Of a DNA stretch of 64,000 nucleotides, positions 35,201 through 38,200 are shown one piece after another. Positions within the stretch are counted from its first letter, which is position 1, and each line of letters begins with the position of its first letter. The position numbers are program-made. The DNA comes from Escherichia coli (lineage in GTDB: Bacteria; Pseudomonadota; Gammaproteobacteria; Enterobacterales; Enterobacteriaceae), in NCBI RefSeq assembly GCF_003790525.1, contig NZ_CP033635.1; one strand, written 5' to 3'.

Positions 35201-38200
35201 TTCTTTGCTAAATCTTTTATTTCTTTTAATGTTGCGTGATCCTGCATAGTCATTGTGACTAATGTTAATTTAGTCTTTTCAAGTTTAAGTGCATTAAACA
35301 CTTCTAAATTAATTGTCGACGTAACAATTAAAAGATGCTTAATTTTATGCAATTCAAGCGCCCGAATAACAGGAAAGATGGCCATAGCATCGCCAATCTG
35401 GTCGGGAATATGGATGACAACAAAGTCTGTTTTTTCAATATTGAAATTATAAGCTTTATAATCGTAGTAACTAAATGCAATACGTCTCAACAATGATGCT
35501 AAAAACATACCTAACCTCGCCTCCCTACTGGTTATAATGCAATGCAGTCTATCAGACTCATCAGGGTGCCATTTTGTGCATATGCGGACTTTTATGTTTC
35601 ATATCTCTAACCTGTGGCTCCTCTGCTTAATCCTTAAACAACACCAGCAACTCCTGCGCTTTCATCTTCCATCGAATTTTTCATGTTGCCGCTAATCAGC
35701 CATAAAATCATTTGCAGATGCGCTCTGTCGAGGTAGTCTCATAAGGTTCGTTTATAGATCGACGGCAATGTGAGTTACCTTTTCCATACTAATTATAAAA
35801 AGACAGTACAAACAGGATCATTATGGACTCCACGCTCATCTCCACTCGTCCCGATGAAGGGACGCTTTCGTTAAGTCGCGCCCGACGAGCTGCGTTAGGC
35901 AGCTTCGCTGGTGCCGTCGTCGACTGGTATGATTTTTTACTCTATGGCATCACCGCCGCACTGGTGTTTAATCGCGAGTTTTTCCCGCAAGTAAGCCCGG
36001 CGATGGGAACGCTCGCCGCATTTGCCACCTTTGGCGTCGGATTCCTTTTCCGTCCGCTCGGCGGTGTCATTTTCGGTCACTTTGGCGACCGACTGGGACG
36101 TAAGCGCATGTTAATGCTGACCGTCTGGATGATGGGCATCGCGACAGCCTTGATTGGTATTCTTCCTTCATTCTCGACCATTGGGTGGTGGGCACCTATT
36201 TTGCTGGTGACACTGCGTGCCATTCAGGGATTTGCCGTCGGCGGCGAATGGGGAGGCGCGGCGTTGCTTTCCGTTGAAAGTGCACCGAAAAATAAAAAAG
36301 CCTTTTACAGTAGCGGTGTACAAGTTGGCTACGGTGTAGGTTTACTGCTTTCAACCGGACTGGTTTCATTGATCAGTATGATGACGACTGACGAACAGTT
36401 TTTAAGCTGGGGCTGGCGCATTCCTTTCCTGTTTAGCATCGTACTGGTACTGGGAGCATTGTGGGTGCGCAATGGCATGGAGGAGTCCGCGGAATTTGAA
36501 CAACAGCAACATTATCAAGCTGCCGCGAAAAAACGCATCCCGGTTATCGAAGCGCTGTTACGACATCCCGGTGCTTTCCTGAAGATTATTGCGCTACGAC
36601 TGTGCGAATTGCTGACGATGTACATCGTTACTGCCTTTGCACTTAATTATTCAACCCAGAATATGGGGTTACCGCGCGAACTTTTCCTCAATATTGGTTT
36701 GCTGGTAGGTGGATTAAGCTGCTTGACAATTCCCTGTTTTGCCTGGCTTGCCGATCGTTTTGGTCGCCGCAGGGTTTATATCACAGGTGCGTTAATCGGA
36801 ACGTTGAGCGCATTTCCTTTCTTTATGGCGCTTGAAGCACAATCTATTTTCTGGATAGTTTTCTTCTCCATAATGCTGGCAAACATTGCGCATGACATGG
36901 TGGTGTGTGTGCAACAACCGATGTTTACCGAAATGTTTGGTGCCAGTTATCGCTATAGTGGTGCTGGAGTCGGTTATCAGGTCGCCAGTGTGGTTGGCGG
37001 TGGATTTACACCTTTTATTGCCGCTGCACTCATCACTTACTTTGCCGGGAACTGGCATAGCGTCGCCATTTATTTGCTGGCTGGATGTCTGATTTCCGCA
37101 ATGACCGCTTTGTTGATGAAAGACAATCAACGCGCTTGATAGTCTGGCGAAGATCATCCGATCTTCGCCTTACACTTTTGTTTCACATTCCTGTGACATA
37201 CTATCGGATGTGCGGTAATTGTATGGAACAGGAGACACACATGAATAATAAGGGCTCCGGTCTGACCCCAGCTCAGGCACTGGATAAACTCGACGCGCTG
37301 TATGAGCAATCTGTAGTCGCATTACGCAACGCCATTGGCAACTATATTACAAGTGGCGAATTACCTGATGAAAACGCCCGCAAATAAGGTCTTTTTGTCT
37401 ATCCATCACTGACCGTAACCTGGGACGGTAGCACAACCAATCCCCCCAAAACGCGCGCATTTGGTCGTTTTACTCACGCAGGCAGCTACACCACCACGAT
37501 TACTCGCCCTACTCTCTTTCGTTCGTATCTTAATGAACAACTTACGTTGCTGTATCAGGATTATGGTGCGCATATCTCTGTGCAACCCTCGCAGCATGAA
37601 ATCCCTTATCCTTATGTCATCGATGGCTCTGAATTGACACTTGATCGCTCAATGAGCGCTGGGTTAACTCGCTACTTCCCGACAACAGAACTGGCGCAAA
37701 TTGGCGATGAAACTGCAGACGGCATTTATCATCCAACTGAATTCTCCCCCCTATCGCATTTTGATGCGCGCCGCGTCGATTTTTCCCTCGCACGGTTGCG
37801 CCATTATACCGGTACGCCAGTTGAACATTTTCAGCCGTTCGTCTTGTTTACCAACTACACACGTTATGTGGATGAATTCGTTCGTTGGGGATGCAGCCAG
37901 ATCCTCGATCCTGATAGTCCCTACATTGCCCTTTCTTGTGCTGGCGGGAACTGGATCACCGCCGAAACCGAAGCGCCAGAAGAAGCCATTTCCGACCTTG
38001 CATGGAAAAAACATCAGATGCCAGCATGGCATTTAATTACCGCCGATGGTCAGGGTATTACTCTGGTGAATATTGGCGTGGGACCGTCAAATGCTAAAAC
38101 CATCTGCGATCATCTGGCAGTGCTACGCCCGGATGTCTGGTTGATGATTGGTCACTGTGGCGGATTACGTGAAAGTCAGGCCATTGGCGATTATGTACTT

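What the first reader, a model, noticed from the sequence alone, without database searches (positions are those of the whole stretch)
37385..37387. Nonsense codon (TAA) at codon 49 of amn in an otherwise core region
AMP nucleosidase is interrupted by a single in-frame ochre codon with the rest of the gene intact. It is the only disrupted gene I found in the conserved part of the window, suggesting recent loss of function or a sequencing error.
Basis: seen in the sequence. Interest (0 to 1): 0.45.

Follow-up and report, generated by a model that had tools for sequence, protein, structure and literature searches.

The report
Recent nonsense mutation inactivating amn
One C-to-T change turns codon 49 of the E. 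coli AMP nucleosidase gene (amn) into a stop codon, which makes this an ordinary, recent, strain-specific knockout of a non-essential gene and not a new kind of feature.

Summary
Every comparison genome has CAA (Gln) there. The other 483 codons encode a protein identical to the crystallised K-12 enzyme (PDB 1T8R).

The T allele is absent from all 5,401 complete RefSeq E. coli genomes that carry this segment. A metagenome scan found it 0 times against 59 wild-type hits. It is present in a public draft assembly, GCA_003686615.1, which matches the window 100% over 30 kb. A sister genome, GCA_034460245.1, shares an older lineage SNP (nac L276F) but still has CAA. The mutation therefore sits on a terminal branch of an SMS-3-5-like lineage. 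The same C-to-T change also occurs once on an unrelated haplotype, so it has arisen independently at least twice.

amn is under strong purifying selection in E. coli (171 synonymous against 20 non-synonymous variants). No plausible restart codon or suppressor tRNA lies nearby. The best reading is a genuine, recent null allele. A sequencing error is unlikely but cannot be excluded without the reads.

A DcuA/DcuB-family transporter gene carries a frameshift at 59525. Interest is low.

The parts
37241..38695 (+). amn (AMP nucleosidase) coding region, now a pseudogene through one in-frame ochre codon
   Evidence: Translation. 484/484 identity to PDB 1T8R once Q49 is restored. Pfam AMNp_N at residues 12-167 and PNP_UDP_1 at 266-431. 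shiA-amn-yeeN synteny.
37385..37387 (+). Premature stop TAA at codon 49; the mutated base is 37385 (C to T, CAA to TAA, Q49*)
   Evidence: No exact match in 5,401 RefSeq complete genomes. Present in GCA_003686615.1 and independently in Logan ERR15950935.
37241..37387 (+). Residual 48-codon ORF, the only product expected from the native start
   Evidence: It ends 36 residues into the AMNp_N domain (12-167) and contains none of the catalytic domain.
37547..38695 (+). 382-codon in-frame remainder starting at the first start-like codon after the stop (TTG, codon 103). It has no Shine-Dalgarno-like sequence upstream and is unlikely to be translated.
   Evidence: Gene callers report this same 382-aa fragment in other assemblies where amn is broken by other lesions.

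Best explanation
This is a genuine, evolutionarily recent nonsense mutation, a C-to-T transition at 37385 (Gln49 CAA to ochre TAA). It inactivates amn in a terminal sub-lineage of an SMS-3-5-like E. coli clone.

Shown by the sequence and database comparisons: the base change, its derived state, its position on a terminal branch, the intact remainder of the gene, and strong purifying selection on amn across the species.

Inferred: ribosomes terminate after 48 residues, which is before most of the N-terminal AMNp_N domain and all of the PNP_UDP_1 catalytic domain. No AMP nucleosidase is made, so AMP is no longer cleaved to adenine and ribose-5-phosphate. The roughly 1.3 kb of untranslated mRNA downstream is probably exposed to Rho termination or decay.

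From published amn knockouts, the expected phenotype is mild: viable cells with a somewhat larger adenylate/ATP pool. It would matter most under phosphate starvation, when amn is normally induced. The allele is most likely a neutral or slightly deleterious private variant that selection has not yet removed.
For: The stop is in frame at codon 49 and results from a single C-to-T change against the closest genomes.

The allele is rare and derived. It is found in 0 of 5,401 RefSeq complete genomes. The TAA 23-mer has 0 metagenome hits against 59 for the CAA 23-mer.

The same allele is present in the public assembly GCA_003686615.1, whose contig RDDW01000016.1 is 100% identical to window 22091-52455. 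No Amn protein is on record for that assembly.

The sister assembly GCA_034460245.1 shares nac L276F but has CAA and an intact 484-aa amn.

Sharing of the lineage SNPs is nested. rcsA V192F is in 5 contigs. nac L276F is in 2 NCBI assemblies plus at least 8 SRA runs. yeeJ G696V, 34266G and amn Q49* are only in the window and GCA_003686615.1. This is the pattern of clonal descent, not of error.

The rest of the protein is identical to 1T8R, so there has been no later decay.

amn is strongly constrained. Among 37 alleles there are 171 synonymous and 20 non-synonymous segregating changes, against 1,051 and 3,305 possible changes. None of 43 copies was disrupted.

No rescue route is visible. The first in-frame start-like codon after the stop is TTG at codon 103, with no SD-like sequence. 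The five tRNAs in the window have normal Ser-CGA and Asn-GTT anticodons.

Literature: an amn knockout raises ATP by about 30% and increases cold tolerance (Morrison & Shain 2008, as cited in PMC3042610). amn was induced 14.5-fold by Pi starvation in O157:H7 (PMC3978041). An amn frameshift fixed in a long-term stationary-phase lineage (PMC7858067).
Against: No reads are available. The window and GCA_003686615.1 may derive from the same isolate or the same read set, so their agreement may not be independent confirmation.

No expression or enzyme data exist for this strain. A suppressor tRNA elsewhere in the genome cannot be excluded from a 64-kb window.

Stand-alone catalytic-domain homologues exist (PDB 1YBF, 268 aa), so a restarted fragment is not impossible in principle.
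Confidence: 0.87

Rival explanations
1. The T at 37385 is a sequencing or assembly error, and the strain actually has an intact amn.
For: The allele is unique among 5,401 complete genomes. Other public assemblies, including NCTC records, show amn broken by homopolymer indels at codons 69, 71 and 78 that look like assembly errors. No reads could be examined.
Against: It is a substitution outside any homopolymer or Dam/Dcm motif (context CGCAAA[C/T]AAGG). The identical base is in a second assembly with a different contig structure (GCA_003686615.1). The window's other differences from relatives are confirmed as real polymorphisms by independent assemblies. The homopolymer indel at 59525 is shared by several near-identical contigs, and two Logan SRA-run contigs are 100% identical.
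Confidence: 0.07
2. The stop is real, but functional Amn is still made. This could happen through an ochre suppressor tRNA elsewhere in the genome, through stop-codon readthrough, or through reinitiation that yields an N-terminally truncated active enzyme.
For: The downstream 435 codons are perfectly intact. Short catalytic-domain-only homologues exist (1YBF). In-frame TTG, GTG and ATG codons occur at codons 103, 114 and 138.
Against: An intact remainder is equally expected for a very recent mutation. UAA is read by both release factors and is the least leaky stop (established knowledge). No SD-like sequence precedes any candidate restart, and the nearest is 160 nt downstream. The five tRNAs in the window are ordinary. 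A stop maintained for recoding would be conserved, yet relatives all have CAA. A restart at codon 103 would remove about 60% of the AMNp_N domain.
Confidence: 0.03
3. The loss of amn was positively selected, making this an adaptive null allele. The advantage could be a larger adenylate/ATP pool, helpful in cold, stationary-phase or other niche conditions.
For: The same Q49* mutation arose independently on an unrelated haplotype (ERR15950935). An amn knockout raises ATP and cold tolerance. An amn frameshift fixed in a long-term stationary-phase lineage. An IS1-associated 5' truncation of amn at codon 30 is present in another genome series.
Against: amn is intact and under strong purifying selection in almost all E. 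coli. The allele is confined to one terminal branch. One recurrence among a very large number of public assemblies is expected for a C-to-T transition, which is one of only 35 transition routes to a stop in this gene. There is no excess of loss-of-function alleles in the sampled copies (0 of 43).
Confidence: 0.1

Closest known systems
E. coli K-12 amn (AMP nucleosidase, EC 3.2.2.4; PDB 1T8R/1T8S/1T8W/1T8Y)
   Same: Same locus (shiA-amn-yeeN), same length, 483 of 484 codons encode identical residues, and the same two-domain architecture AMNp_N + PNP_UDP_1.
   Different: Codon 49 is TAA instead of CAA, so only a 48-residue peptide is expected.
Engineered amn knockouts (Morrison & Shain 2008; amn::ado1 replacement in NMN-producing MG1655, PMC8601175)
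   Same: Predicted complete loss of AMP nucleosidase. Published effects are higher intracellular ATP and increased cold tolerance, with viable cells.
   Different: Those are laboratory deletions or replacements in K-12. This is a spontaneous point nonsense allele in a natural SMS-3-5-like lineage, and its phenotype has not been measured.
amn 1-bp insertion fixed during 1,200-day long-term stationary-phase evolution (PMC7858067)
   Same: A small spontaneous lesion that inactivates amn and persists in a lineage.
   Different: A frameshift rather than a nonsense codon, arising in laboratory evolution of K-12.
amn Q49* in Logan assembly ERR15950935 (locus L003)
   Same: The identical C-to-T change at the identical position gives the same 48-aa and 382-aa gene calls.
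   Different: It lies on a different haplotype, with about 40 SNPs across 5.4 kb against the window. The nearest RefSeq genomes are a different set from the window's nearest (e.g. 2011C-4251, EC11), so its origin is independent.

Membership tests
AMP nucleosidase gene (amn) | N-terminal AMNp_N domain (PF10423) followed by a PNP_UDP_1 catalytic domain (PF01048) | tested here: met
   With Q49 restored, AMNp_N covers 12-167 (E = 4e-51) and PNP_UDP_1 covers 266-431 (E = 3e-21).
AMP nucleosidase gene (amn) | Orthology to characterised E. coli Amn, by sequence identity and conserved neighbourhood | tested here: met
   484/484 identity to PDB 1T8R apart from codon 49. shiA upstream and yeeN downstream, as in annotated genomes.
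AMP nucleosidase gene (amn) | Uninterrupted reading frame able to encode the full enzyme | tested here: not met
   TAA at codon 49. The locus is therefore an amn pseudogene or null allele, not a functional member.
Pseudogene by recent nonsense mutation | In-frame stop where close relatives have a sense codon (derived state) | tested here: met
   CAA in 702/18, SMS-3-5 and the sister GCA_034460245.1. No exact match to the TAA allele in 5,401 genomes.
Pseudogene by recent nonsense mutation | No secondary degenerative changes, indicating recency | tested here: met
   The remaining 483 codons encode the K-12 protein exactly. Within window 37141-38800 the amn SNP is the only difference from many genomes.
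Pseudogene by recent nonsense mutation | Actual loss of protein or enzyme activity | not testable with these tools
   This needs an enzyme assay, proteomics or a western blot on the isolate.
Programmed stop-codon recoding or suppression | Stop codon conserved among relatives, or a cognate suppressor tRNA present | tested here: not met
   The stop is not conserved. The window's five tRNAs are Ser-CGA and four Asn-GTT. The rest of the genome was not available.
Sequencing artefact | Variant not reproduced in independent data for the same lineage | tested here: inconclusive
   The variant is reproduced in GCA_003686615.1, but whether that assembly's reads are independent of the window's is unknown.

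The most novel reading that the evidence does not exclude
amn loss of function is recurrently selected in particular E. coli niches. The independent reappearance of exactly Q49* in two unrelated lineages, together with amn lesions seen in laboratory stationary-phase evolution, would then reflect convergent adaptive tuning of the adenylate pool rather than drift.
Probability: 0.08. Interest if true: 0.35.

Novelty: already known. Interest (0 to 1): 0.08.

Why it matters
It matters very little beyond strain annotation. The strain, and its near-identical public draft GCA_003686615.1, should be treated as a natural amn-null. That could slightly alter its adenylate/ATP homeostasis and its response to phosphate starvation. 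The allele can serve as a lineage marker for this terminal branch. The finding shows no new mechanism and opens no open question to testing.

Tried and rejected
1. I looked for the allele in complete RefSeq E. coli genomes with a 61-nt search and a 1.66-kb search. No exact match turned up.

2. I scanned metagenome contigs for the TAA 23-mer and found 0 hits. A control scan with the CAA 23-mer found 59.

3. I looked up the 48-aa peptide by exact sequence. It lies in 46 blocks, but in the 24 contigs read all except one are contigs that simply end inside codon 49. Only ERR15950935 has a true stop. The remaining 22 blocks of short contigs were not read.

4. I looked up the 382-aa remainder. It lies in 457 blocks, and all 10 places shown had CAA at codon 49. 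They were broken by other lesions: homopolymer indels at codons 69, 71 and 78, and an IS1-linked 5' truncation at codon 30. This route is therefore not informative for this allele.

5. IS1 and IS2 elements near amn in strains H1 and GZM7 turned out to be intergenic, and amn is intact there.

6. The exact look-up of the 2,358-aa YeeJ failed. The 2,367-aa start variant succeeded.

7. A literature search for the accessions RDDW01 and GCA_003686615 found nothing.

8. An Rfam scan of 35-41 kb found only tRNA-Asn. The promoter and terminator scan found nothing created at the mutated site.

9. I considered and rejected methylation-motif basecalling error, because there is no GATC or CCWGG at any of the private SNPs (contexts).

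Full report
**Observation**

The window carries the E. coli gene order shiA (35823-37139), amn (37241-38695) and yeeN (39038-39754) on the + strand. Translating amn from its ATG at 37241 gives 48 sense codons, then TAA at 37385-37387, then 435 more sense codons up to the natural stop.

With Gln restored at position 49, the 484-residue protein is 484/484 identical to crystallised E. coli AMP nucleosidase (PDB 1T8R and related entries). It has the expected domains, AMNp_N at residues 12-167 and PNP_UDP_1 at 266-431.

**Which base changed, and how rare it is**

The closest complete genomes are E. coli 702/18 and SMS-3-5. Across window 25648-63998 (38.4 kb) the window differs from them at the following sites:
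- two positions inside tRNA-Ser serU (25679, 25690);
- four substitutions at 29204, 34266, 37385 and 43285;
- one single-base deletion at 59525.

Position 37385 is C in both relatives, so the change is CAA (Gln) to TAA, a C-to-T transition.

A 61-nt query centred on the site matched 5,401 complete RefSeq E. coli genomes. Every one had at least one mismatch and none matched exactly. An exact-pattern scan of metagenome contigs found the TAA 23-mer 0 times and the CAA 23-mer 59 times. Among 43 full-length amn copies on those contigs none was disrupted, and 26 encode the K-12 protein exactly. Thirty-seven distinct alleles carry 171 synonymous and 20 non-synonymous differences, while 1,051 synonymous and 3,305 non-synonymous single-base changes are possible. 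That is roughly a 25-fold deficit of amino-acid changes. amn is normally intact and strongly constrained, so the stop is a real departure from the norm.

**Real mutation or error? Placing it on the tree**

I used the window's other lineage-specific alleles as handles for exact-protein look-ups.

- Nac L276F (43285) is found in two NCBI assemblies and in Logan contigs from at least eight SRA runs.
- One of those assemblies, GCA_003686615.1 (contig RDDW01000016.1), is 100% identical to the window from 22091 to 52455. It shares the TAA, YeeJ G696V and 34266G, and has no Amn protein on record. Its contig ends at window 52455, so the window comes from a different, more contiguous assembly of the same or a nearly identical strain.
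- The other assembly, GCA_034460245.1, shares nac L276F but has CAA, an intact 484-aa amn and C at 34266.
- RcsA V192F (6751) is shared more widely, by five contigs including GCA_025670525.1.
- The 1-bp deletion at 59525 is shared by several near-identical contigs from independent samples.

This nested sharing (rcsA, then nac, then yeeJ/34266/amn) is what clonal descent produces. It argues that the assembly's differences are genuine SNPs and that amn Q49* lies on the terminal branch.

The mutated base is not in a homopolymer or a Dam/Dcm motif. I therefore rate a real, recent mutation as much more likely than an error. Without reads, and without knowing whether GCA_003686615.1 is an independent data set, an error cannot be fully excluded.

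**Independent recurrence**

An exact look-up of the 48-residue peptide found one further true TAA allele, on a 5.8-kb Logan contig from ERR15950935. That contig differs from the window at about 40 positions over 5.4 kb. Its nearest RefSeq genomes are a different set of strains, so the same transition arose independently. The public data are very large, and this gene has only 35 transition routes to a stop. One recurrence is therefore unremarkable and does not by itself indicate selection.

The other 48-aa records that were read are simply contigs that end inside codon 49.

**Consequence (inferred)**

Termination after residue 48 removes most of the N-terminal domain and the whole catalytic domain. 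The first in-frame start-like codon after the stop is TTG at codon 103, 160 nt downstream, and no Shine-Dalgarno-like sequence precedes it. The same is true for GTG at codon 114 and ATG at codon 138. The five tRNA genes in the window are ordinary: Ser-CGA and four Asn-GTT. UAA is recognised by both release factors (established knowledge). I therefore expect a null allele.

yeeN has its own promoter-like site at 38942-38971, so a strong polar effect is not expected. This too is inference.

Published work indicates that amn is dispensable:
- A knockout raised ATP by about 30% and increased cold tolerance (Morrison & Shain 2008, cited in PMC3042610).
- An amn replacement raised ATP in an engineered MG1655 (PMC8601175).
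- An amn frameshift fixed in a long-term stationary-phase lineage (PMC7858067).
- amn was induced 14.5-fold by phosphate starvation in O157:H7 (PMC3978041).

The likely phenotype is a mild change in adenylate homeostasis, most evident under phosphate limitation.

**Comparison with what is known**

This is a textbook nonsense pseudogene in a well-characterised, non-essential metabolic gene. It meets every sequence criterion for amn except an open reading frame. It fails the criteria for programmed recoding, because the stop is not conserved and there is no suppressor nearby. The allele already exists in a public assembly. Nothing mechanistically new is involved.

amn is not the only disrupted gene in the conserved part of the window.
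- The deletion at 59525 shortens a G6 run to G5 on the coding (-) strand. It frameshifts a DcuA/DcuB-family transporter gene after about 30 codons.
- The frameshifted TonB-dependent receptor (about 49615-51761) and the IbrB-like gene with an internal stop (about 52132-52776), both annotated in 702/18 and SMS-3-5, are present with identical sequence here.

**Verdict**

This is an ordinary finding of low interest.

Noticed in passing
window 59525 (gene about 58300-59615, - strand): A 1-bp deletion in a C6 run (G6 on the coding strand), relative to 702/18 and SMS-3-5, frameshifts a DcuA/DcuB-family anaerobic C4-dicarboxylate transporter gene after about 30 codons. Gene callers then report a 452-aa ORF with an aberrant N-terminus. 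The same allele is on several near-identical contigs from independent samples, so it is a real clade polymorphism and a second inactivated gene in the core region.
   Followed up: partly
window 25632-25737 (serU tRNA-Ser, - strand) and the junction at about 25000-25650: The window lacks the roughly 42-kb prophage that sits next to serU in SMS-3-5 and 702/18. The two differences inside the tRNA (25679, 25690) pair with each other in the long variable arm. From memory, the window matches the K-12 serU sequence at these two positions. The variant in the relatives may come from the prophage attachment site.
   Followed up: partly
window 6751, 29204, 43285: Lineage-specific missense SNPs relative to the closest RefSeq genomes are rcsA V192F, yeeJ G696V and nac L276F. 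Two of these lie in transcriptional regulators. rcsA V192F is shared by 5 contigs. nac L276F is shared by 2 NCBI assemblies plus several SRA runs. yeeJ G696V is shared only with GCA_003686615.1.
   Followed up: partly
window about 48000-55000: A cluster of old pseudogenes and remnants is shared with 702/18 and SMS-3-5: a frameshifted TonB-dependent receptor, an IbrB-like gene with an internal stop, and fragments annotated as IS4 transposase, ClbP peptidase, thioesterase and galactonate dehydratase. Draft contigs of the two related assemblies end at window 52455 and 52620, which suggests a repeat there.
   Followed up: no
amn codons 30-78 in other assemblies (L013-L022): Other public assemblies have amn broken in different ways. 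There are homopolymer +1 indels at codon 69 (C6 run), codon 71 (A4) and codon 78 (T4); these may be assembly errors, and two of the three are NCTC records. There is also an IS1-associated truncation that removes everything upstream of window 37330 (codon 30) in a series of about 4.73-Mb genomes (CP078557-CP078592).
   Followed up: partly
window 37384-37386, seen in loci L004-L012 and L088-L096: Many public metagenome and Logan contigs end within codon 49 of amn, which produces 48-aa partial gene calls in 46 blocks of the collection. This is probably the chance distribution of contig ends. It was not compared with neighbouring codons.
   Followed up: no
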